Made by a program: the position numbers and the translations under genes. A stretch of 16,008 nucleotides of DNA, from positions 1 to 16,008 of the forward strand of contig NZ_LFJJ01000125.1 in the NCBI RefSeq assembly GCF_001189365.1, written 5' to 3'. The notes beneath the pieces are model-generated. The model saw only the letters and a list, made by a program, of their open reading frames with translations. It had not been told where the DNA came from and ran no database searches. This DNA comes from Candidatus Burkholderia verschuerenii. Lineage in GTDB: Bacteria; Pseudomonadota; Gammaproteobacteria; Burkholderiales; Burkholderiaceae. This document shows, one piece after another, positions 1,470 to 16,008 of this stretch (the first letter of the stretch is position 1; every line of letters begins with the position of its first letter).

Positions 1470-2388
1470 TCAGGTCAGACCGTTCGCCACGCGAAACCGT
1501 CCCGGCGCGACGCCGTACAGTTCCTTGAACCGCTTGGAAAACGCCGCTTCGGATTGGTAACCGACATCCGCCGCCACATCGGCGATGCTCTTTTTGGTGT
1601 GCGTGAGCATGGTGCTGGCGAGCTGCATCCGCACATGGCCGAGCAGCGCGAGCGGCGAACTGTCGGAATGCGCGGAGAACGCCCGCATGTAGGTGGCGCA
1701 CGACATTGCCGCTTCCCTGGCGAGCAATTCCAGCCGTCCACGGTTCGGCGGGCCGCTCCAGCATCGCGATGATCGACGCGCCCAGCCACCGGTTGGCCAG
1801 CAGCGCGAGCACGCCCGCGACCGACGGCTGTTCGGCGAGCCACGCGCGCAGCACCATCGTGAAGAGCGCGGTCGATAGCGCGGTGATGATCGACGGCGCG
1901 CCGAGTTGCGCTTCGTCGGCTTCGCGACGCATCGCGCCGATCAGCGCGGCGAGATAAGGCGCCGAGGCATCCGAAAACGAGACGTGGACGACATCGGGCA
2001 GGACATCGATCAGCAAGGCGCGCGGCGCGTACAGAAAACGTCCGCAGAGCAGATCGAGTTCCGCCGCGCGGCCGTCGACGCAATTGCTTTTCAGGGTAAT
2101 CGTGCCTTGCGGCTGCTTGCGCACCGCGACCGCCTCCTCATCCGCCGATGCCGTCGCGACGCTCAGCACATGCGCATCGCCGCGCGGCAGCACGAAGATA
2201 TCGCCCGCGTTCAGCGTGAGCGTCGGCCGGCCCTTGCGCGCGACGAAGCACGTTCCGGCCAGCACGACGTGAAACACCGCTTCGCCGGCGGGCGCGTGAT
2301 CCAGTTCCAGCGGACCGCGCAACAGACAGCGCAGATCGAGCGCGCCGGAAAGATTCGCGAGTTGGAGCAGACGGTCGAGAGCGTCCAT
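1470..2388 (-). pseudogene. AraC-family transcriptional regulator (cupin N-domain + HTH), disrupted by a frameshift near 1733-1737
   Basis: The N-terminal cupin/AraC-binding domain (MDALDRLLQ...GDIFVLPRGDAHVL...) reads in the 430..2388 frame down to ...RPAEPWT. The C-terminal AraC HTH (LLAREAAMSCATYMRAFSAHSDSSPLALLGHVRMQLASTMLTHTKKSIADVAADVGYQSEAAFSKRFKELYGVAPGRF) reads in the frame of ORF 1470..1727. Removing one G from acGGctgg restores a continuous PWT-LELLAREAAMS. Confidence 0.8.
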
Positions 2389-2441
2389 CGGGCGGTCGGC
2401 TTAGGAAAAGGGTCCGTCCAGATAATAGCGGAGAACAGGCG

Positions 2442-3427
2442 CTATTCGGTGACCGTATCGACGTCGCTTTCCTCGCCCGATGCCGTGACGGCGCGCTTGC
2501 GCGTCAGCGACGCCGACACGCTCGACATCAGTTCGCGCAGCCACGCGACATCGGTCGGCTGCTCGGGCTGCGGCAGTGACAGCTGATAGCACTTGATGCG
2601 CGGAAACGGCACCAGCGAGTCCATCACCGCGAGCGGCAGCATCGACGCGTAATGCTGCGCGAAGCGGCGCGGCGCGGTGAAGATCAGATCGGATTGCAGC
2701 AGCACCTGCGGCACCAGCCCGAAGTAGGGGATCGTCGTCACGATGCGCCGTTCGATGCCCGCGCGCGCCAGCCCTACGTCGATCGGATGCCGCTTGCCGC
2801 CGCTGTACGGCGTCGGCGCGAGATGCGCGGCGCGCGCGTAGCGTTCGACCGTCAGCGGTTCGCGCGTGAGCGGATGATCGGCGCGCATCAGGCAGACGAA
2901 AACATCCGCGAACAAATCCTGCCGGTCGAAACGCGGTTCCGGCTTGGCTTGGTCCAGTTGGCGACCACCATCAGATCGATCTCGCCTTCGTCGAGCGCGC
3001 GTTCGTGATCGCGCATCGGATTCAGCGATTCGATTTCCAGACGCGCGTTCGGCGCGGCATCGCGGAAAGCGGCGACCAGCGTCGGCATGAAGAAACCATT
3101 GAGGTAATCCGGCGCGGCGACGCGGAACGTGCGGCGCGAACTGGCGGCGTCGAAATCGCCGTGCGGCGTCGCGACGAATTCGACTTCCCGCAAGGCGTGC
3201 TGGGCGGGCGCGAGCAGCGATTCGCCGTATTCGGTCGGCACCATGCCCTGTTTGCCGCGCACGAGAATGGGATCGCCGAGAATCTCGCGCAGCCGCCGCA
3301 GCGCCGTGCTGATCGCCGGTTGCGTCTGGTTCAGCCGCTGCGCCGTCTGCGTGACGCTGCTCTCGAGCAAAAGCGTCCGCAGCACGCGGATGAGCCAGAT
3401 ATCGAGTGAGTCGGCGGGGTCGGTCAT
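2442..3427 (-). pseudogene. LysR-family transcriptional regulator, disrupted by a 5-bp tandem duplication (frameshift) near 2941-2952
   Basis: The N-terminal HTH (MTDPADSLDIWLIRVLRTLLLESSVTQTAQRLNQTQPAISTALRRLREILGDPILVRGK...) is in the frame of ORF 2888..3484. The C-terminal substrate-binding domain (..EPRFDRQDLFADVFVCLMRADHPL...VTTIPYFGLVPQVLLQSDLIFTAPRRFA...) is in the frame of ORF 2442..3497. The junction sequence ggcttggcttgg (minus strand aagccaagcc) is a GGCTT x2 repeat. Deleting one copy gives W-T-K-P-E-P-R-F-D in frame. Confidence 0.8.
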
Positions 3428-3666
3428 ATCGGTCGAACGATGGAAAACGGATGGCCGCCGACCTTTGCCGACCTGCGCGCCCACATCTCACGGACACAAT
3501 GCGCGCGCGGACGAAGCGTGCGATCGCACGTCGTCCGTCAACAAATAGTCACACAGCCTGATGCGAGGTTAAACGCTTTCCGCCATCCGGCCCATAGCGC
3601 ACGCCCTATGCACGGCATTACCGGCGCGCGTCGGTCGGCTTGCCGCCACGTTTGCGCCACGTTGCG

Positions 3667-4311
3667 TCAGGTGAAATCGGCGTCGCGCGGGGCCATCGGC
3701 AGATTGCTGATGCGCTTGACCTCGGCGGCTTCCGGCCAGTTCGGCGAACGCGCGACGTACAGGACCATCGGCAAGGTGTCCTCGCCCCAGAAAATCTGCT
3801 CGTTGACGACGAAAGTCGGCACGCCGAACACGCCCAGCGAGACGGCGCGCTCGTTGTTGTCGCGCAGACGCGTCTTGATGTCGTCGTCCTCGATGCGCTG
3901 GACCGCATCCGGCAGGCCGACGCGCTGGCACAAATCGGCGAAACCTTCCACCGACGAGCAATCGCGCCCTTCGCGCCAGATATAGCGAAAAATTTCGCGC
4001 ACGACGTGGATATCGCCTTCCGCGAGCACGGCCAGGCGCAGCGCCTTGTTCGGATCGAACGGATGCACGGGCGGCATCTTGAACGGAATGCCGAGCTGTT
4101 CGGCGCGGAACAGCGCGTGCCGGTACGTGAAGATGCGTTTCGACGGAATCGTGGTGGCGTGCGGCTGGCCCCAGCGGTCGAGCAGCTTCATCAACTGGAT
4201 CGGCGTCAGCGCGAACGGCATGTCGGGCCATTTGTCGTGCTGTTCCAGCAGCAGATACGAGAACGGCGAGATGAAATCGAAAAAGAAATACGGTTAACCG
4301 GGGCCGCTCAT
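3667..4311 (-). pseudogene. 2-hydroxychromene-2-carboxylate isomerase / DsbA-like thioredoxin-fold protein with an in-frame TAA at codon 6
   Basis: ATG at 4311 is preceded by a strong RBS (AAGGGAGAAACCAAC-ATG). Translation is MSGPG*PYFFFDFISPFSYLLLEQHDKWPDMPFALTP...GVFGVPTFVVNEQIFWGEDTLPMV. It contains the conserved FDFxSPFSY N-terminal active-site motif and the C-terminal GVPTFVV..FWG.D motif of the HCCA-isomerase/DsbA family. TAA at 4294-4296 (minus) lies inside the palindrome CGGTTAACCG (4291-4300). Confidence 0.75.
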
Positions 4312-4507
4312 GTTGGTTTCTCCCTTCCCTGGGCCGCGTCTGGGCCTCATCGTGTGCTCGCCTGTCGCTGTTGGGTCGATGCCGGACGTTTCCATCCGCC
4401 GTTCTATGGATATTACGTGTTGCGCTGCTTACGTGCTGCCTTGTTCCGCTCCGGCCTTCGATCGGCTCGCTGCGTTTGTCACCGATCCCGCCGCCGATTC
4501 CGTCGCC

Positions 4508-5863
4508 GATATGTTCGCGTAGCACGTAAAACTGATCGGCGAAGGCGAGCGGCATCTTCATCCGGTTCACCGACGTTTCGATCGCGTCGATGCGCTCGAG
4601 CAGCGCGTCGCGCTGCGACGTGTCCGGGCCGCTGATGGCTTCGCGCTCGATCGCGATCAGCGCGCCGTACCAGCGATAGATCCGCGATTTCATCCGCCAT
4701 CGGTATAGCCCCGGCACCAGCCGCAAGCCCGGAATCAGCACGACGATCAGCGGCACCAGCACGACCAGCACGCGATCGGCGAGACTCGCGAGCCAGAACG
4801 GCAGCGTGCGGTACAGAAAGCTCTTGCCCGACTTGTAATAGCGCTCGGCGTTGTCGCTGATGCGGAATTCGTGGGCGAGCGGCGCGGGAAACTCGTTCGC
4901 GCGCTGCAGCAGGTTGGCGCGGCTGTGCACTTCGCGGGCGGCTTCGATCAGCAAGTCGGAGAGCGCCGGATGCAGGCTGTCGCGGGCGACGAGTTCGGCC
5001 GTCGGCGCGATCGTATGCACCGGATGCGGCGGCAGATTGCGGGCGAAGTCGAACGCGCCCATCGGGAAATCGATGGTCGTTAGATACGGGAAGCGGCGCG
5101 CGTAGGCATCGGCCTGCGCGAAATCCATGAAACGCACGCCGGGCGTGCGCAGCAGCTTGGCCATCGTCGGCGGTTGGGCGGAATCGCCGGTCAGGAACAC
5201 GGCGTCGGCCTTGTCGGTTTCCAGCGCATCGGCGGCGGCGTCGCCGGCGAGCGGCAGCAAAGGCGTATCGCCGCCCGGCTCGATGCCGTTCGCCTTCAGC
5301 AATTGCAGCGACAACACCCGCGTGCCGCTGCCTTCCGCGCCGATCGCGAGCCGCTTGCCCTTCAGTTCCGACAGACGCGTGACCGGCGCGCCGCGATAAA
5401 ACACCGCGAGCGGCACATACGACACGCTGCCGAGCGATTCGAGATGATCGTGCGGGGTGCCGGGCTGCGTCATCCCGCCCTGCACGAAGCCGACGTCGAC
5501 ATCGGAATGCGAATCTTCCAGACGCGTGAGGTTATCGAGCGAGCCTTGCGTCTCCAGCACGTTGAGCGTGACGCGGTTGCGCGCGAGGATCGCCTTGTAC
5601 TTCTGCGCGCTGTTCCAGAAGAAGCTGCCTTTCGGGCCGGCCGCGATGGTCAGCGTATCGGGCGGCGCGGGCTGGATCAGCCGCACGGCGACCCACAGCG
5701 CGACGATGCAGACGAGGAGAATCGGGCCGAAGGTAAGCGCGAGATCGCGCCAGGAGATCGCCACGAAGCGGGCGACGATCTTCGGCTGGGGCCGGCGCCG
5801 CTGGCCGTGTTCCGGACCGTCGGACGGACGCGGTTCCGGTTCGCTTCCTGAGGGCTGGGTCAT
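4508..5863 (-). CDS. TAXI-family TRAP transporter solute receptor, membrane-anchored; the homology-supported part is given and the 3' end/stop is not resolved
   Basis: ATG at 5863. Cytoplasmic N-tail, TM helix (LTFGPILLVCIVALWVAVRLI), periplasmic TAXI/Imp-like domain (TIAAGPKGSFFWNSAQKYKAIL...KRLAIGAEGSGTRVLSLQLLKANGIE...), and two C-terminal TM helices (LPFWLASLADRVLVVLVPLIVVLIPGL...). The frame stays open through 4508 (..FYVLREHI) and continues with no stop down to 3569, across the next gene. The native stop therefore appears lost or shifted. Confidence 0.7.
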
Positions 5864-7147: not shown

Positions 7148-9269
7148 ATGACAAGATTCGCGCGGATCCAGACTCTCAGGCGACAGGCGACGACCCTCGC
7201 GCTGCTCGCGACAGCAGCCACCTTCGCCGGATGCCACGGCGGTGACGACAACAGCGGCCCGCCGACCAACACCCTGCCGAGCTTCGTTTCCGGCTCGGTG
7301 AAGATTCAAAGCTACGACGGCAACACCGACGACTTGCTGACCGCCGGCCTCGGCAAGAGCGGACTGGCGTCGTCGACGGCGCCGGCCATCGCCAATGCGA
7401 CGTCGCCGACGGCGGCCGAATTGCGACGCCTCGCGATCTACTCGAACTATCGCGCGCTCGTCGACATGACGGCGAACGGCGGCTACGGGCGCTTCTGGGG
7501 GCCGAACGTCGATCTGAACGGCAACGACACGCTCGGCGAAGGCAAGATCGCCGGCAAGGAATATCTCGCCTACGCCGACGATGGCAGCGGCAATCTCAAC
7601 GTCAGTCTGATGGTACAGATTCCGTCGAGCTTCAACGCGGATCAGCCGTGCATCGTCACGGCGACGTCGTCGGGCTCGCGCGGCATTTACGGCGCGATAT
7701 CGGCGGCGGGCGAATGGGGACTCAAGCGCGGCTGCGCGGTCGCCTACACCGACAAGGGCAGCGGCAACGGCGCGCAGAATCTCACGACCAATCTCGTCAC
7801 GCTGATCGACGGCACGCTGTCCAACGCGACGCTCGCGGGCAATACGGCGATCTTCAAGGCGAACGTGAGCAGCGCGGCGCTGGCGTCGTACAACGCGAGC
7901 TTGCCGGCGCGTTACGCGTTCAAGCATGCGCATTCGCAGCAGAATCCGGAGAAGGACTGGGGCAAGAACACCTTGCAGGCGATCCAGTTCGCCTACTGGG
8001 CGCTCAACGATACCTACGGCGCGCTCAACAACGGCTCGACGCATGCCGTGCGCTACGAGAAAGGCGGCATCACGACGATCGCGGCATCGGTCAGCAACGG
8101 CGGCGGGGCATCGCTGGCGGCGGCCGAGCAGGATACCGACGGCTGGATCACGGCGGTCGTGGTCGGCGAGCCGCAGATCAACCTCAATCTGCCGTCGCAG
8201 GTGGCGGTGTACGAGGGCAACACGCCGGTCGGCTCGTTCGGGCGGCCGCTCGCCGACTACATGAGCCTCGCGAATCTGCTGCAACCGTGCGCGGCGCTGG
8301 CGCCGGCGGCGGCCAACGCGCCGAATCTGAGCGCCTTGCCGGTCGCGACGACCGCGGCGATCCGCACGGCGCGATGCGCGTCGCTGGCGCTGGGCGGCGT
8401 GATCGGCGGTGGCGATACCACGACGCAGGCCAACAACGCGCTGGCGGCGCTGCATCAGGCGGGCTACGAAGCCGATTCCGACACGCTGCACGCGCCGATG
8501 TGGGACTCGCAGGCCGTTGCCCGCCGTCGCCGTGACTTACGCCGACGCGTACATGAAGGCCAGCGTCGTCGATAACCTGTGCAACTTCAGCTTCGGCACG
8601 ACCAATCCGGCGACCGGCGCGGCGGGCGTGACGCCGCTGATTTCGCCGATGCCGACGGTCTTCGGCAACGGCAACGGCGTGCCGCCGACCAACGGCATCA
8701 ATCTGGTCTACAACGCGGGAACGAGCGGCGCGGCGGATCATCGTCTGGCGACGGCCGATGCCAGTTTCACCGGCGCGGCTTGTCTGCGCGAACTATGGAC
8801 GACCGGCAATCCGACGATGGCGGCGAGCGTCAACGCGATCCGCGTGAACGCCAATCTGCGCGGCAAGCCGGCGATCATCGTGCAGGGGCGCTCGGACGCG
8901 CTCGTGCCGATCAACCATGCGTCGCGTCCGTATCTCGGCGCGAACCGGATGGCGGAGGGCAGCAAGAGCCAGTTGTCGCTCTACGAGATCATGAACGGTC
9001 AGCACTTCGACGCGTTTCTGGGCGTGGCCGGTTTCGATACGCGCTTCATTCCGGTCCACTATTACAACCTTCAGGCGCTGAACCTGATGTGGGCGCATCT
9101 GAAGAACAACGCGCCGCTGCCGCCGTCGCAGGTGGTGCGCGCGGTCGCGCGTGGCGGCTCGCCGAGTGCCGCGCCCGCGCTGACGACGGCGAATCTGCCG
9201 GCGATCGCGGCCAGTCCGGGCGCGAATGCGATTCTGGTGAATGGCGGGGTGGTGAACGTGCCGAGGTGA
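7148..9269 (+). pseudogene. D-(-)-3-hydroxybutyrate oligomer hydrolase (PhaZ2/PhaY-type), lipoprotein; frameshift near 8515-8525
   Basis: GGAG sits 7 nt upstream of ATG 7148. Lipoprotein signal with lipobox LALLATAATFAG|C. The N-terminal 475 aa (ORF 7148..8575) match 3HB-oligomer hydrolase: LLTAGLGKSGL, ELRRLAIYSNYRALVDMTANGGYG, CIVTATSSGSRGIYGAI..EWGLKRGCAVAYTDKG, and the lipase-box-like ASVSNGGG. The C-terminal 250 aa continue in ORF 8409..9269 (PAVAVTYADAYMKASVVDNLCNFSFGTT...). The frame switch sits in caggccgttgCCCgccgtcgccgtg. Deleting one C gives ..DSQAVAAVAVTYADAY.. in frame. Confidence 0.8.
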
Positions 9270-9385
9270 GGGGCGTACCTTATGCCAAAAACTGGCGCCG
9301 TTGAAGTGTTTTACGCTGATATTGGCGGACGATAAGCAACTAAAGAGGCATAGACGATGCAGGCGCGAACAACGACAATGGTCGT

Positions 9386-10150
9386 ATGGACTCACACCCA
9401 ATCACATTTTCGTTGAGCGACGAATCGCCGGGCTACGCAATCAGTCCGGCGCGCGTCCCGTTGGGCACGCTCACCGCATTCGCGAGCGACGTGCAGGAAT
9501 TTCTCCTCGGCAGCGAGAGGTCCGTAAGTGCCGAATTGGAGGTCGCCGTGGTCAACGGATCGCTGGCGATCGAAGCGCGCAATGCCGATTCGCCAGGGCT
9601 GCTGCACGATTTAAAACGACTTGCCAGCGGATTGGATCTGACAAGGATCGATCCGAAACGTCGGTCGGTCATCGAGCGATGGCAATTGACGGCACGCGAC
9701 GCAAAATCGTGGAAACTGGAAATTAGTGGTGCGGAAAGGACGACGATTGTGGTTTCAAATGTGACGGATTTTCATTTCGCCGACCACCATCAGTTGGTTA
9801 ATGTCGAGCGTTATATTCGCGGTGAAGTGGTCAAGTTGGGCGGAGCAAGGGAGCCGACTGCCCGCATCCGTTTGGCCAACGGAAAAATGCTGACCGTGCA
9901 TGCAGAGCGCGAGACCATACGCGCCGAAACTGAAAATCACCTTTATAGACACGTGCATGTCCGAATTCGAGCAAAGCTTGATATTGAAACAGGTGAATTG
10001 AGTGACGCACGACTAGTAGAGTTCGTCGATTATTCCCCTGGGTTCGATGAACAGGCATTCGAAAAATTGACTTCGGAAGGCACGGAAGCATGGAAGGATG
10101 TAGATGACCCGGCTGAATGGGTTCGAAATTTGCGGGGAACGTCTGAGTGA
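9386..10150 (+). CDS. Hypothetical 254-aa protein with no recognisable domain; first gene of a low-GC two-gene island
   Basis: First in-frame ATG after an upstream TAA. The ORF lies in a ~48% GC region against ~65% flanks. Its stop TGA (10148-10150) overlaps the GTG start of the downstream PIN gene (GTGA). Weak RBS. Acidic C-terminus. Contains the sequence RAETENH (Rx5H). Confidence 0.6.
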   Translation: MDSHPITFSLSDESPGYAISPARVPLGTLTAFASDVQEFLLGSERSVSAELEVAVVNGSLAIEARNADSPGLLHDLKRLASGLDLTRIDPKRRSVIERWQLTARDAKSWKLEISGAERTTIVVSNVTDFHFADHHQLVNVERYIRGEVVKLGGAREPTARIRLANGKMLTVHAERETIRAETENHLYRHVHVRIRAKLDIETGELSDARLVEFVDYSPGFDEQAFEKLTSEGTEAWKDVDDPAEWVRNLRGTSE

Positions 10151-10647
10151 ATTCCGTCTTGCTTGATACCAGCTTCCTGATTTGCTTGAGTGATTCGAAT
10201 CGCTCGCATCATGCTCTTGCGAAGACTTACTTTCAGCGATTTATCGCCGAAGAAATCACGATGTATTTGTCGACCATCGTCATTAGCGAGTTCGAGGTTA
10301 AACAGCGAATATCGAGTTTGGGCCTTTCGAATTTTATCGTTCTACCGTTTAATTACGAAGACGCGTTACTGACAGCCAGGCTCTTCAACGAAATGCACGG
10401 CAATCGGCAGGAATCGGACGCGCGTGTCGCCATCAAAGACGACGCCAAGATACTCGGCCAATGCGTCTTCGCGGGTATAACGCATTTTGCGACGGACGAT
10501 GATAAATGCGTCCGGCGAATGAAAGCGGTGCGTGCAGGCGGTTTAGCCACGGACTTGCCGCATGCGATAGACCTGCACGAGCCTTTCTGGGAAGGATGGT
10601 TCACGGAAAATAATCAAGGCAATCTTCCTTTTGACTCGAATGCTTAG
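10147..10647 (+). CDS. PIN-domain (VapC-like) ribonuclease
   Basis: N-terminus VNSVLLDTSFLICL (the PIN motif LDT[NS]xLI with the first catalytic Asp). Later acidic residues occur at spacings typical of PIN (ISEFEV, ATDDDKC, D near 120). GTG start overlaps the upstream stop by 4 nt. Low GC. Confidence 0.7.
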   Translation: MNSVLLDTSFLICLSDSNRSHHALAKTYFQRFIAEEITMYLSTIVISEFEVKQRISSLGLSNFIVLPFNYEDALLTARLFNEMHGNRQESDARVAIKDDAKILGQCVFAGITHFATDDDKCVRRMKAVRAGGLATDLPHAIDLHEPFWEGWFTENNQGNLPFDSNA

Positions 10648-10665
10648 CACGCCTTGAGGAAATTC

Positions 10666-11472
10666 CTAGCGAGATAGCGTCGAGGTTGCCGACCCCGAAG
10701 CCGACGCCGAAACCGGCCCCTCCGCCGGCGTCGACGGCGCGCTAGCGCCCGATGCGTTCGCGGCCGCCGCCTGCGCTTCCTTGCGCGTCTCGGCCGCTGC
10801 CGCCGATGCCTGGATCGCCGTCGCCGCGGCCGGGTTCGTCACGACGATCGGCGTCGGCGTCAGTTCCGGCGAACTCACGACGATCGACGGCGCGAGCGGC
10901 TTGCTCTTCACTTCATCGGCGGCGACGGGCGCGCTGCGTGGCACGGTGCTCAGATAGTGGCCCATCAGCCCGAAAAAGCGGTCGTAGAACTTGCCTGCCG
11001 GCACGGTCTCGCTGGTGATCTTCACCATCGCGTCGTTGTTCGAGCGGATCGGCAGCGACAGCGAGCCGAACACGCTCAGGCCGACGCTCGCCGACGTGTC
11101 GCTCTTCTTGAGCGCGTAGCCGTCCTGCACGGCGTTCACATACGCGATGCTCGTGTTGGTCGCATTTTCCCCCGGCGTACAGACGACGTGGAACGACACG
11201 ACCACGTGCTGATCGGCGGTCGGCTGGAAGTTTTTGGTCGCATCGACGGTATCGGGCTGGCCCATCGTCGTCAGGAAACCTTGCGATAGCAGGGCGCGGC
11301 GCGCGGCTTCGCAGGTTTCGTTGACGGTGGCGTCGAAGTTGTGCGCGAACGGACTCGCGCCGGAATTGAACAATTCTTGCTGATAGCTCGGCGTGGTGGC
11401 GGAGCGGCCCCCGCAGGCGGCGAGGGCGAGGAGTGCGAGGGAGGCGAAAGCGAGACGCAGCGGAGTGGGCAT
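10666..11472 (-). CDS. Putative lipoprotein with an Ala/Pro/Ser-rich low-complexity C-terminal tail
   Basis: ATG at 11472. Signal peptide with lipobox MPTPLRLAFASLALLALAA|CGG. Globular middle region, then a 90-aa A/P/S/T-rich tail. Convergent with the PIN gene, with an 18-bp gap. Confidence 0.7.
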   Translation of the reverse strand: MPTPLRLAFASLALLALAACGGRSATTPSYQQELFNSGASPFAHNFDATVNETCEAARRALLSQGFLTTMGQPDTVDATKNFQPTADQHVVVSFHVVCTPGENATNTSIAYVNAVQDGYALKKSDTSASVGLSVFGSLSLPIRSNNDAMVKITSETVPAGKFYDRFFGLMGHYLSTVPRSAPVAADEVKSKPLAPSIVVSSPELTPTPIVVTNPAAATAIQASAAAAETRKEAQAAAANASGASAPSTPAEGPVSASASGSATSTLSR

Positions 11473-12342: not shown

Positions 12343-12422
12343 CAAGACATCCGTTCCGGTGAGCTGTGCTCAATGGAACGGGAATTCCCGCGTTTTCAGT
12401 CTCAATCAAGAGAGGAGTGTGT

Positions 12423-12713
12423 ATGAACCTTCGTCCTTTGCACGATCGCGTCATCGTCAAGCGTCTGGACCAGGAAACCAAGACCGCATCGGGCATCGTG
12501 ATCCCCGAAGCCGCCGCCGAAAAGCCGGATCAAGGCGAAGTCCTGGCCATCGGCCCGGGCAAGCGCGATGACAAGGGCGCGCAAATCGCCCTCGACGTGA
12601 AGGTCGGTGACCGCGTGCTGTTCGGCAAGTACGCCGGCCAGACCGTCAAGGTCGACGGGCAAGAGCTGCTCGTCATGCGCGAAGAAGACATCATGGCCGT
12701 TCTGGTCAAGTAA
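12423..12713 (+). CDS. groES: Co-chaperonin GroES
   Basis: GAGGAG RBS 5 nt upstream of ATG 12423. Translation [52 protein letters not shown]...[15 protein letters not shown] is canonical GroES. Confidence 0.97.
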
Positions 12714-12749: not shown

Positions 12750-14450
<1,701 letters not shown>

Positions 14451-15043: not shown

Positions 15044-16008
15044 GCGCCTGTCTCTTCAGGTGCGCCCCACGCTTGAATGTCCTGTCTGGCGAAACCGAAA
15101 GACAGCGAGCGTGCCATATCCTGTTTTAGAAGTGACAAGGCCACACGGCGCCAGGATGGTTGCGCGCGTCGATTCTCCAGCGCGGGTGTGCCTGCGTCGG
15201 GCCAGGCGTCGAGCGGATAGCCATGGCTCGCCCACCATTGGACAAAGCGTTCGATGCGACGTGCATAGCGACCCTTTGCCCCTCTGGCATGCTGCCGAGC
15301 TGGAAATGGGCATAGGCCTTCCAGGTAGCGAAGGAAGACGGTAGTCCTGTGCCACCGCGATAGCCGAGAAACCGTTGGCGACAATAGCGCGCCGCGTAGT
15401 TGGCGCCAGCAACACGGGTCACCACCCTGAACCAGGTTTCCGGCTCGATGCGATGGAACAGGTCCAACCCTTTGCGCTGGTCATCACCGTAAGGCTGGCA
15501 GATGCGCATTTGCGAAAATGCGATGCCTGCCCAATGCATGTCATCGTACAGCCGGTTGTACGCGTGATGTTTCTCATGCGTGTAGCGCCATAGATCGCCG
15601 AATTTCCAGTCATAGATCGGGAAGAAGCTGACGGCCTGGTCCTCGCTGTCGTGACGCGAACTCCATGCGATCGGCGCGGCGCGACCGGGCGGCGTCCATG
15701 CCCGCCGTTTTCCCGGCCGCCTTGGCCGGATGGCGCGGTATCGGTTCAGGGATTCATCGGCACGAATGCCCACCAGGAACGCGGTCGGAACATCACGAGC
15801 CAACCACGCATCGAAGCCGGCCACGAATTCTTCGAACTCCATGCGGAATCGGTAAAACGGGAAGACTGAAGCATCGCGTATCAAGTTGTGTGCGTCAAGT
15901 TGTGCAGAAATCGGATGCCGGTGGTTTCAGTTGATCCTTCTGTGCGACGTGCGGCGCGAAGGGCGTAGCCCGCAGCGCCGAACGCCGCGCGGCCGCTATG
16001 CAGCAGCG
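15040..16008 (-). pseudogene. PAPS-reductase-like / DUF3440 (IbrA-like) protein, 5'-truncated by the window edge, with a frameshift near 15285-15300
   Basis: The upstream frame (ORF 15126..15884, open from ~15955) carries PAPS-reductase-like motifs (FLVGIRADESLNRYRAI, FFPIYDWKFGDLWRY, TWKAYAHFQLGSMPE). The DUF3440-type C-terminus (RYARRIERFVQWWASHGYPLDAWPDAGTPALENRRAQPSWRRVALSLLKQDMARSLSFGF) is in the frame of ORF 15040..15384. The two frames overlap across 15126-15384. The upstream frame has stops at ~15955 and ~16000, so the N-terminal P-loop part is missing or also shifted. Confidence 0.6.

What the first reader, a model, noticed from the sequence alone, without database searches (positions are those of the whole stretch)
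2930..2960. LysR regulator inactivated by a 5-bp tandem duplication (GGCTT x2)
The N-terminal HTH and the C-terminal effector domain are in different frames. The junction is the perfect tandem repeat ggcttggcttgg. Deleting one unit gives WTKPEPRFD in frame. A 5-bp duplication is a replication-slippage signature, not a homopolymer sequencing artefact. This looks like a genuine pseudogene.
Basis: seen in the sequence. Interest (0 to 1): 0.5.

Follow-up and report, generated by a model that had tools for sequence, protein, structure and literature searches.

The report
LysR regulator pseudogene, 5-bp duplication
A LysR-type regulator gene in a Caballeronia-lineage bacterium is broken in the middle by a 5-bp tandem duplication; it is one of at least four decaying genes in this 16-kb stretch, which is the ordinary gene erosion known from host-restricted relatives.

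Summary
GGCTTGGCTTGG sits at 2941-2952 inside a minus-strand LysR-family gene (ATG 3427, stop 2442). Removing one 5-bp unit restores a 326-aa ORF with HTH_1 and LysR_substrate domains that is 84-91% identical to intact Caballeronia orthologues.

All 23 orthologous loci aligned across the junction lack the extra 5 bp, so it is a derived insertion. It copies AAGCC between two pre-existing CC dinucleotides, as slipped-strand mispairing would. A second, in-frame 3-bp duplication (TGGTGG, 2965-2970) lies 15 bp away.

Reads were not available, but indirect evidence favours a real pseudogene over an artefact:
- Three neighbours carry their own lesions: AraC +1, 3HB-oligomer hydrolase +1, and a CAA->TAA nonsense codon in a DsbA-like gene.
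- Lineage-private substitutions in the four broken genes are 41 non-synonymous to 6 synonymous, against 184:172 in other taxa (p=1.5e-6).
- Intact neighbours, including GroEL, look normal (11:18 vs 92:163).
- The same regulator is independently degraded in six plant-associated relatives.

This matches the published pseudogene spectrum of leaf-nodule Burkholderia. It is ordinary and of low interest.

The parts
2442..3427 (-). LysR-family transcriptional regulator pseudogene, from ATG 3425-3427 to TAG 2442-2444. It is 986 nt; 981 nt (326 codons plus stop) once the 5-bp duplicate is removed.
3221..3391 (-). Winged helix-turn-helix DNA-binding domain (Pfam HTH_1, residues 13-69), intact and in the start-codon frame.
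   Evidence: coordinates computed
2941..2952 (.). The frameshifting lesion: GGCTT GGCTT GG on the + strand, CC AAGCC AAGCC on the coding strand. One 5-bp unit is extra relative to all orthologues (ACCAAGCCGG became ACCAAGCCAAGCCGG).
2965..2970 (.). A second, in-frame 3-bp tandem duplication: CCACCA on the + strand, TGGTGG on the coding strand. It adds one Val (DLMVVANW versus DLMVANW in all orthologues).
2888..2890 (-). Premature TGA that ends the N-terminal reading frame after 160 native and 19 out-of-frame residues.
2445..2944 (-). The C-terminal ~166 codons of the effector-binding domain, now out of frame with the start codon.
1473..2388 (-). Context: the adjacent AraC-family regulator gene, frameshifted by +1 C at about 1734 (CCAGCCG). 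The cupin part and the HTH part are in different frames.
3670..4311 (-). Context: the DsbA-like (2-hydroxychromene-2-carboxylate isomerase type) gene has a nonsense codon TAA at 4294-4296 (codon 6), where the orthologues have a sense codon (CAG, CAT, CAA or CGA).
7148..9269 (+). Context: the 3-hydroxybutyrate-oligomer hydrolase gene is split by +1 T at about 8518. Pfam 3HBOH positions 3-430 and 431-687 fall in two different ORFs.

Best explanation
This is a recently inactivated LysR-type transcriptional regulator gene in a Caballeronia-lineage (Burkholderia sensu lato) genome that is losing genes. A 5-bp unit (AAGCC on the coding strand) was duplicated in tandem at codon 161 of 326. The ancestral sequence CC-AAG-CC already had two CC dinucleotides 5 nt apart, so the nascent strand could re-pair one register back during replication and copy AAGCC twice (slipped-strand mispairing). 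That mechanism is inferred.

The shift puts the second half of the effector-binding domain out of frame and ends translation at a TGA 19 codons later. At most a 179-residue fragment can be made: the HTH, the linker helix and about 65 residues of the effector domain. It cannot sense a ligand or form the normal LysR tetramer, so the regulator is dead.

Shown here: the lesion, its derived state, the intact orthologues, the relaxed constraint and the decaying neighbourhood. Inferred: slippage as the mechanism, the lesion being present in the living organism rather than only in the assembly, and host restriction of the source organism.
For: - The lesion and the repaired ORF.
- Domains.
- 699 homologues, the best being intact 311-330-aa Caballeronia proteins at 80-89% identity. 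The protein alignment shows WTKPEPRF is the conserved reading.
- The DNA alignment shows both the +5 and the +3 are absent from all 16 orthologues, with CCAAGCC as the ancestral state. This is confirmed against 7 reference loci and 6 more.
- The neighbourhood is decaying: AraC +1, 3HBOH +1, a DsbA-like nonsense codon and a damaged TAXI-like 3' end.
- Relaxed constraint is specific to the broken genes. Terminal-branch omega is 0.38 for LysR (rank 1 of 34), 1.70 for AraC, 0.34 for 3HBOH and 0.48 for the DsbA-like gene. It is 0.21, 0.18 and 0.014 for the intact TAXI-like, DUF2242 and GroEL genes.
- Singleton substitutions are 41N:6S vs 184N:172S in the broken genes (OR 6.4, p=1.5e-6) and 11N:18S vs 92N:163S in the intact genes (p=0.84). 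LysR alone is 7:1 vs 25:40 (p=0.018).
- The same gene is independently degraded in Ca. B. humilis, Ca. P. calva, Ca. B. pumila and three other plant-associated Caballeronia.
- Published spectrum: leaf-nodule Ca. Burkholderia have 41.7-67.3% coding capacity, and about half of the small insertions in their pseudogenes form direct repeats (PMC6054270).
Against: - No reads or independent assembly of this genome could be found. Exact-protein look-ups failed and a metagenome scan with a junction pattern found nothing. The presence of the second GGCTT unit in the organism is therefore unverified.
- Pairwise dN/dS of the whole gene (0.12) is no higher than among functional orthologues (about 0.10-0.11). 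Any decay is recent, and the LysR-only signal rests on 8 singleton sites.
- The source organism is unidentified, so host restriction is inferred from pseudogene density and from its relatives.
- A direct repeat does not by itself distinguish slippage from other insertion mechanisms.
Confidence: 0.85

Rival explanations
1. Sequencing or assembly artefact: the organism has one GGCTT unit and an intact gene, and the extra 5 bp arose in consensus calling.
For: No reads were available. The source genome is in none of the searchable collections. Whole-gene pairwise dN/dS is normal. The window contains two single-base insertions in other genes that could in principle be consensus errors.
Against: A clean 5-bp non-homopolymer duplication is not a typical platform error. 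The single-base insertions make only 2-nt runs (C to CC, T to TT), not long homopolymers. One neighbour is inactivated by a substitution, CAA to TAA. The broken genes, and only those, show an excess of private non-synonymous changes, which indel errors cannot produce. The same gene is dead in six related genomes.
Confidence: 0.07
2. Still a pseudogene, but the mechanism differs. The 5-bp direct repeat is the footprint of something other than replication slippage: a target-site duplication left after a mobile element inserted and excised, or microhomology-mediated repair of a double-strand break.
For: Danneels et al. (PMC6054270) propose repeated IS insertion and excision as one source of short direct-repeat insertions in these genomes, and alternative end-joining for small indels. 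The same few base pairs were hit by a mobile element in Ca. B. pumila and by a +1 in L054.
Against: The element at this site in Ca. B. pumila is a group II intron, which makes no target-site duplication, and none is seen there. No IS remnant or terminal inverted repeat is present at the window junction. The ancestral CC...CC microhomology at exactly 5-nt spacing is what slippage needs. The nearby +3 and the two +1 insertions are also simple copies of the adjacent base or bases.
Confidence: 0.12
3. The gene is still functional, either through programmed ribosomal frameshifting or as a reversible (phase-variable) switch in which the number of 5-bp units toggles expression.
For: Only the bare fact that a short tandem repeat sits at the frame junction and that one unit fewer restores the frame.
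Against: The junction ACC AAG CCA AGC CGG has no X XXY YYZ slippery heptamer. None of the 23 orthologous loci aligned across this junction has the frameshift or more than one unit. Two copies of a 5-mer are far below the repeat numbers of known contingency loci. The gene shows relaxed rather than maintained constraint.
Confidence: 0.02

Closest known systems
Intact LysR-family regulators of free-living Caballeronia (e.g. C. megalochromosomata, C. temeraria, C. arvi; protein cluster P0001 'LysR family transcriptional regulator [unclassified Caballeronia]')
   Same: Same gene in the same syntenic position: DsbA-like, then LysR, then AraC, then SPFH, all on one strand. Amino-acid identity is 84-91% over the full length after repair. 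The architecture is the same, HTH_1 plus LysR_substrate.
   Different: The window copy carries +5 and +3 tandem duplications. It also has six private replacements at otherwise invariant residues: R23S, R77H, D111G, A186T, L267M and P270L. It cannot encode the full protein.
Pseudogenes of obligate leaf-nodule Candidatus Burkholderia/Caballeronia symbionts (Carlier & Eberl 2012; Pinto-Carbo et al. 2016; Danneels et al. 2018, PMC6054270)
   Same: Frameshift and nonsense lesions hit non-housekeeping genes while groES/groEL stay intact. Functional orthologues exist in close free-living relatives. Insertions that form direct repeats are common, about 50%. The orthologous LysR is itself degraded in Ca. 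B. humilis, calva and pumila.
   Different: The window's organism is unidentified. Its nearest named relative for one neighbouring gene is Ca. P. calva at 91%. Its LysR carries a single ORF-breaking lesion, so the decay is at an earlier stage than in those copies.
BsrA / LeuO / LelA-type LysR regulators (NCBIfam NF050187, NF007063, NF045905)
   Same: These are the best-scoring named LysR subfamilies, aligned end to end.
   Different: The scores are far below the curated cut-offs: 158 vs 480 bits, 91 vs 262 and 93 vs 500. The gene is not an equivalog of any named regulator, and its regulon is unknown.

Membership tests
LysR-type transcriptional regulator (LTTR) | N-terminal winged HTH (Pfam PF00126 HTH_1) | tested here: met
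   Residues 13-69, 53.5 bits against a cut-off of 26.6
LysR-type transcriptional regulator (LTTR) | C-terminal periplasmic-binding-protein-like effector domain (PF03466 LysR_substrate) | tested here: met
   Residues 96-299 of the repaired ORF, 83.5 bits against a cut-off of 28. In the actual sequence the domain is split across two frames at residue 160/161.
LysR-type transcriptional regulator (LTTR) | A single uninterrupted ORF of about 300-330 aa that is colinear with family members | tested here: not met
   The frame changes at 2941-2952 and a premature TGA lies at 2888-2890. Colinearity holds only after 5 bp are removed.
LysR-type transcriptional regulator (LTTR) | A divergently transcribed target gene next to the regulator (common but not universal) | tested here: not met
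   Both flanking genes (DsbA-like upstream, AraC downstream) are on the same strand, here and in C. arvi.
Named LysR equivalog (BsrA, LeuO, LelA ...) | Score above the curated NCBIfam cut-off | tested here: not met
   The best is BsrA at 158 bits against a cut-off of 480.
Bacterial pseudogene (criteria of Carlier/Danneels: a frameshift or premature stop affecting more than 20% of gene length relative to a functional orthologue) | An ORF-disrupting lesion affecting more than 20% of the length | tested here: met
   The frameshift is at codon 161 of 326, so about 51% of the protein is lost. The criterion is quoted from PMC6054270.
Bacterial pseudogene | Intact functional orthologues in close relatives, with the lesion derived | tested here: met
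   34 Caballeronia loci give uninterrupted ORFs of at least 290 codons. Of these, 33 end at a normal stop (316-340 codons); L021 has lost its stop (604 codons). The +5 is absent from every locus aligned across the junction.
Bacterial pseudogene | Relaxed purifying selection on the lineage | tested here: met
   Terminal-branch omega is 0.38, rank 1 of 34. Singletons are 7N:1S vs 25N:40S (p=0.018), and pooled over the broken genes p=1.5e-6, with intact genes as a negative control. The method is crude (Nei-Gojobori distances and singleton counts, not a likelihood branch model).
Bacterial pseudogene | The lesion is present in the organism (reads) and no full-length product is made | not testable with these tools
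   There are no reads, transcriptome or proteome, and the source genome was not found in any collection.
Slipped-strand mispairing insertion | The inserted bases are an exact tandem copy of adjacent sequence, with pre-existing microhomology at the unit spacing | tested here: met
   Orthologues read CC AAG CC, with the two CC dinucleotides 5 nt apart, and the window reads CC AAG CC AAG CC. This fits slippage but is not exclusive to it.
Programmed ribosomal frameshift site | A slippery motif at the junction and conservation of the frameshift among orthologues | tested here: not met
   ACCAAGCCAAGCCGG contains no slippery heptamer. No orthologue carries the +5 frameshift.
Phase-variable simple-sequence contingency locus | A multi-copy repeat tract whose copy number varies among relatives | tested here: not met
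   There are two copies here and one in every relative examined. Tandem Repeats Finder does not report the site even at a score threshold of 30.

The most novel reading that the evidence does not exclude
The CCAAGCC site at codons 159-161 may be a real mutational hotspot, or this regulator may be a target of selection for loss in plant-associated Caballeronia. Three independent lesions fall within about 5 bp: +5 in this window, +1 A in the Tri_sem endophyte (L054), and a group II intron in Ca. B. pumila (L057). The gene has been inactivated independently in at least seven lineages. If loss of this regulator is adaptive during the shift to a host-restricted life (for example by de-repressing or silencing a regulon the host cares about), it would be a case of convergent regulatory loss rather than neutral decay.
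Probability: 0.08. Interest if true: 0.4.

Novelty: already known. Interest (0 to 1): 0.15.

Why it matters
It matters mainly for annotation. The two ORFs at 2888-3484 and 2442-3497 should be called as one frameshifted LysR pseudogene, not as two genes or a fusion. The window as a whole should be read as part of an eroding genome: at least 4 of roughly a dozen genes are broken while groES/groEL are intact. It adds one more example to a well-documented pattern, in which regulators are lost early in host-restricted Burkholderia sensu lato and small insertions in their pseudogenes often form direct repeats. It opens no new question.

Tried and rejected
(1) Identifying the source genome. Exact-sequence look-ups of three window proteins found nothing: the N-terminal LysR fragment, GroEL and DUF2242. 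The genome-contig scan returned only relatives at 91% amino-acid identity or less, about 83% at the DNA level. A metagenome scan with a junction pattern allowing one or two units gave no match. A homology search with the DUF2242 neighbour gave Ca. P. calva at 91% as the best named hit, plus anonymous JGI proteins at 92-98%.

(2) IS-excision footprint idea. The homology break in Ca. B. pumila at the same site looked like an IS with a target-site duplication. Inspection showed a degraded group II intron instead: RT ORFs with a YADD motif, a 5' GTGCG end, no target-site duplication and no terminal inverted repeats. It therefore gives no support for a 5-bp footprint.

(3) Shared ancestry of the lesion with L054. 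This was rejected. L054 lacks the +3, has a +1 rather than a +5, and is no closer to the window than other taxa (about 86% identity).

(4) Whole-gene pairwise dN/dS showed no elevation. This is uninformative because the terminal branch is a small part of each pairwise distance, so I replaced it with branch and singleton analyses.

(5) The promoter and terminator scan of 2300-3750 found nothing above background.

(6) The SPFH gene could not be used as a control because too few loci covered it.

Full report
**1. What is in the sequence**

The window is 62.6% G+C. The finding lies inside a minus-strand gene that starts at ATG 3425-3427. On the + strand, 2941-2952 reads GGCTTGGCTTGG. On the coding strand this is ...GCC AAC TGG ACC AAG CCA AGC CGG AAC....

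The start-codon frame encodes 160 residues that match LysR proteins. It then gives 19 unrelated residues and a TGA at 2888-2890. The remainder of the protein (…KPEPRFDRQDLFADVFVCLMRADHPL… to TAG 2442-2444) lies in a different frame.

Deleting one 5-bp unit gives a single 326-aa ORF reading …DLMVVANWTKPEPRFDRQDLF…. Pfam finds HTH_1 at residues 13-69 and LysR_substrate at residues 96-299 of that ORF.

Period-5 runs of this length occur three times in the window, so the repeat alone is not unusual. Its exact coincidence with the frame change is what counts.

**2. Comparison with orthologues**

The repaired protein finds 699 homologues. The best are intact 311-330-aa LysR proteins of Caballeronia at 80-89% identity. 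In a 17-sequence alignment, N157, W158, P161 and F165 are invariant and the consensus reads NWxKPEPRF. This is the frame the repair restores.

A scan of one genome per species returned 59 loci, mostly Caballeronia, with 85-91% identity for the closest free-living species. At the DNA level the window is about 83% identical to these, so the source genome itself is not among them.

A nucleotide alignment of the junction against 16 orthologues shows that all of them read …GATCTGATGGTCGCCAACTGGAC(C/G)AAGCC(C/G)GA…. The window has two extra blocks. One is +3 (TGG to TGGTGG; + strand CCACCA at 2965-2970), which adds a valine. The other is the +5 (CCAAGCC to CCAAGCCAAGCC). Both were recovered again by BLAST against seven reference loci and six further loci. 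The 5 bp is thus a derived insertion on the window's lineage.

The ancestral CC-AAG-CC has two CC dinucleotides exactly 5 nt apart. Slipped-strand mispairing needs that kind of microhomology to duplicate AAGCC. This mechanistic step is an inference.

**3. Is it a real pseudogene or an artefact?**

Reads were not available. Exact-protein look-ups and a metagenome scan with a junction pattern tolerant of one or two units found no independent copy of this genome. I therefore looked for evidence that does not depend on the indel itself.

(a) Neighbouring genes, compared with C. arvi and others, are also broken:
- The adjacent AraC-family gene has a +1 C at about 1734, separating its cupin and HTH parts.
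- The 3-hydroxybutyrate-oligomer hydrolase gene has a +1 T at about 8518. Pfam 3HBOH positions 3-430 and 431-687 fall in separate ORFs.
- The DsbA-like gene has TAA at codon 6 (4294-4296), where 15 aligned loci have a sense codon (CAG, CAT, CAA or CGA). That is a base substitution, not an indel-type error.
- The TAXI-like gene has lost its conserved FVRQRLAH… tail to a 12-bp repeat array. Its native EQGST-stop is out of frame.
- groES and groEL are intact.

(b) Relaxed constraint. Whole-gene pairwise dN/dS of LysR (0.12) is no higher than among free-living pairs, which are about 0.10-0.11. Any decay is therefore recent.

A crude terminal-branch estimate gives the following values of omega:

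| Gene | State in window | Terminal-branch omega | Rank among taxa |
|---|---|---|---|
| LysR | broken | 0.38 | 1 of 34 |
| AraC | broken | 1.70 | 1 of 28 |
| 3HBOH | broken | 0.34 | 2 of 29 |
| DsbA-like | broken | 0.48 | 3 of 34 |
| TAXI-like | largely intact | 0.21 | 10 of 34 |
| DUF2242 | intact | 0.18 | 3 of 7 |
| GroEL | intact | 0.014 | 7 of 16 |

I also counted substitutions private to one taxon at otherwise invariant sites:

| Gene set | Window N:S | Other taxa N:S | Odds ratio | p |
|---|---|---|---|---|
| Four broken genes | 41:6 | 184:172 | 6.4 | 1.5e-6 |
| Three intact genes | 11:18 | 92:163 | 1.08 | 0.84 |
| LysR alone | 7:1 | 25:40 | 11.2 | 0.018 |

Six of the LysR changes replace residues that are invariant in the other 34 sequences: R23S, R77H, D111G, A186T, L267M and P270L. 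Sequencing errors in the form of indels cannot create this pattern.

(c) The same gene is independently degraded in plant-associated relatives:
- Ca. B. humilis has an in-frame stop and 2-bp indels.
- Ca. P. calva has three stops.
- L054, an endophyte genome, has at least five frameshifts.
- L055 and L056 have frameshifts and stops.
- Ca. B. pumila retains only fragments.

None of these shares the window's lesions.

**4. Context from the literature**

Leaf-nodule Candidatus Burkholderia symbionts have coding capacities of only 41.7-67.3%. Frameshift and nonsense mutations occur in all categories except housekeeping and secondary-metabolite genes. Functional orthologues survive in free-living relatives (PMC6054270).

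In their curated pseudogenes, 110 of 217 insertions (28 of 83 in Ca. B. pumila) create direct repeats. The authors raise IS insertion and excision as one possible cause.

The window's four coding insertions (+1 C to CC, +1 T to TT, +3, +5) are all copies of adjacent bases and fit this spectrum. The nearest named relative of an intact neighbour (DUF2242) is Ca. P. calva at 91%. The organism itself remains unidentified.

**5. Rivals**

Artefact: unlikely, for the reasons in section 3, but only reads can exclude it.

Another insertion mechanism: this cannot be excluded. The one mobile element found at this spot, in Ca. B. pumila, is a degraded group II intron inserted between ACCAA and GCC with no target-site duplication. 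It offers no precedent for a 5-bp footprint.

Programmed frameshifting or phase variation: there is no slippery motif, no conservation of the frameshift and only two repeat units. The gene also shows relaxed constraint.

**6. Comparison with known families**

The gene is a LysR-type regulator by both defining domains. It fails the intact-ORF criterion. It is not an equivalog of any named regulator: BsrA scores 158 bits against a cut-off of 480. It has no divergent partner gene, so its regulon is unknown. It meets the published operational definition of a pseudogene, because the frameshift affects about 51% of the length.

**7. Verdict**

The feature is an ordinary, probably recent, frameshift pseudogene in a genome undergoing gene decay. 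Its value lies in annotation and as one more data point for a known pattern.

The only mildly unusual point is that three independent lesions in different lineages fall within about 5 bp of each other. I expect about 0.17 such coincidences from roughly 18 lesions over 981 nt, which gives p of about 0.01. That estimate is mine and post hoc.

Noticed in passing
window 2965-2970: A second tandem duplication lies 15 bp from the first. TGG became TGGTGG on the coding strand, in frame, adding a Val (DLMVVANW) that every orthologue lacks. It may be a separate slippage event or part of one complex event.
   Followed up: partly
window 1473-2388 (-), lesion at about 1734: The adjacent AraC-family regulator is also frameshifted (+1 C, CCAGCCG). 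As a result the 652-aa ORF at 430-2388 is an artificial read-through from the AraC N-terminus into the SPFH/Band-7 gene. Lineage omega is about 1.7, and singletons are 14N:1S.
   Followed up: yes
window 4294-4296 (gene 3670-4311, -): The DsbA-like (2-hydroxychromene-2-carboxylate isomerase type) gene has a nonsense codon at codon 6: TAA, where the orthologues have CAG, CAT, CAA or CGA. The next start codon lies downstream of the conserved FFFDFISPFSY motif. The same gene also has lesions in L054 (ATG to ATA) and L057 (+1 T).
   Followed up: yes
window 7148-9269 (+), lesion at about 8518: The 3-hydroxybutyrate-oligomer hydrolase gene (Pfam 3HBOH) is split into two ORFs by a +1 T.
   Followed up: yes
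window 4300-4510 (gene 4505-5863, -): The TAXI/NMT1-like solute-binding protein gene has lost its conserved C-terminal FVRQRLAH... segment. In its place is a 12-bp repeat array (4478-4510). The native EQGST-stop is in another frame, so the ORF runs on for 806 aa across the DsbA-like gene. Omega on this lineage is not elevated, so the gene may be only recently or mildly affected.
   Followed up: partly
L057 7430-9996; L054 about 4417; window 2941-2952: Three independent lesions hit the same few base pairs of the LysR gene in different lineages. The window has +5. L054 has +1 A (ACCAAAGCC). Ca. B. pumila has a degraded group II intron of about 2.57 kb, on the strand opposite LysR, with a 5' GTGCG end and RT ORFs carrying YADD. 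This may be a mutational hotspot or a coincidence (rough post-hoc p of about 0.01).
   Followed up: partly
window 9264-10777: This roughly 1.5-kb segment is absent from all related loci. It has two overlapping + strand ORFs: 9386-10150 (254 aa, no family match) and 10147-10647 (166 aa, weak sub-threshold PIN/VapC-like match). It may be a lineage-specific toxin-antitoxin-like insertion.
   Followed up: partly
window 15126-15884 (-): This 252-aa ORF matches only the C-terminal part of a PAPS-reductase domain (profile positions 103-162 of 175) plus the first half of DUF3440. It looks like a truncated remnant of a larger gene.
   Followed up: no
L021 250 onwards (Ca. P. schumanniana): The orthologous LysR reads through residues 1-315, but the ORF continues to 604 aa. 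The 3' end is frameshifted and the stop is lost, relative to C. ptereochthonis.
   Followed up: partly
window about 12422-12712 and 12810-14450 (+): groES and groEL are intact. GroEL is 97% identical to C. arvi, with a very low lineage omega (0.014), in contrast to the decaying genes around them.
   Followed up: yes
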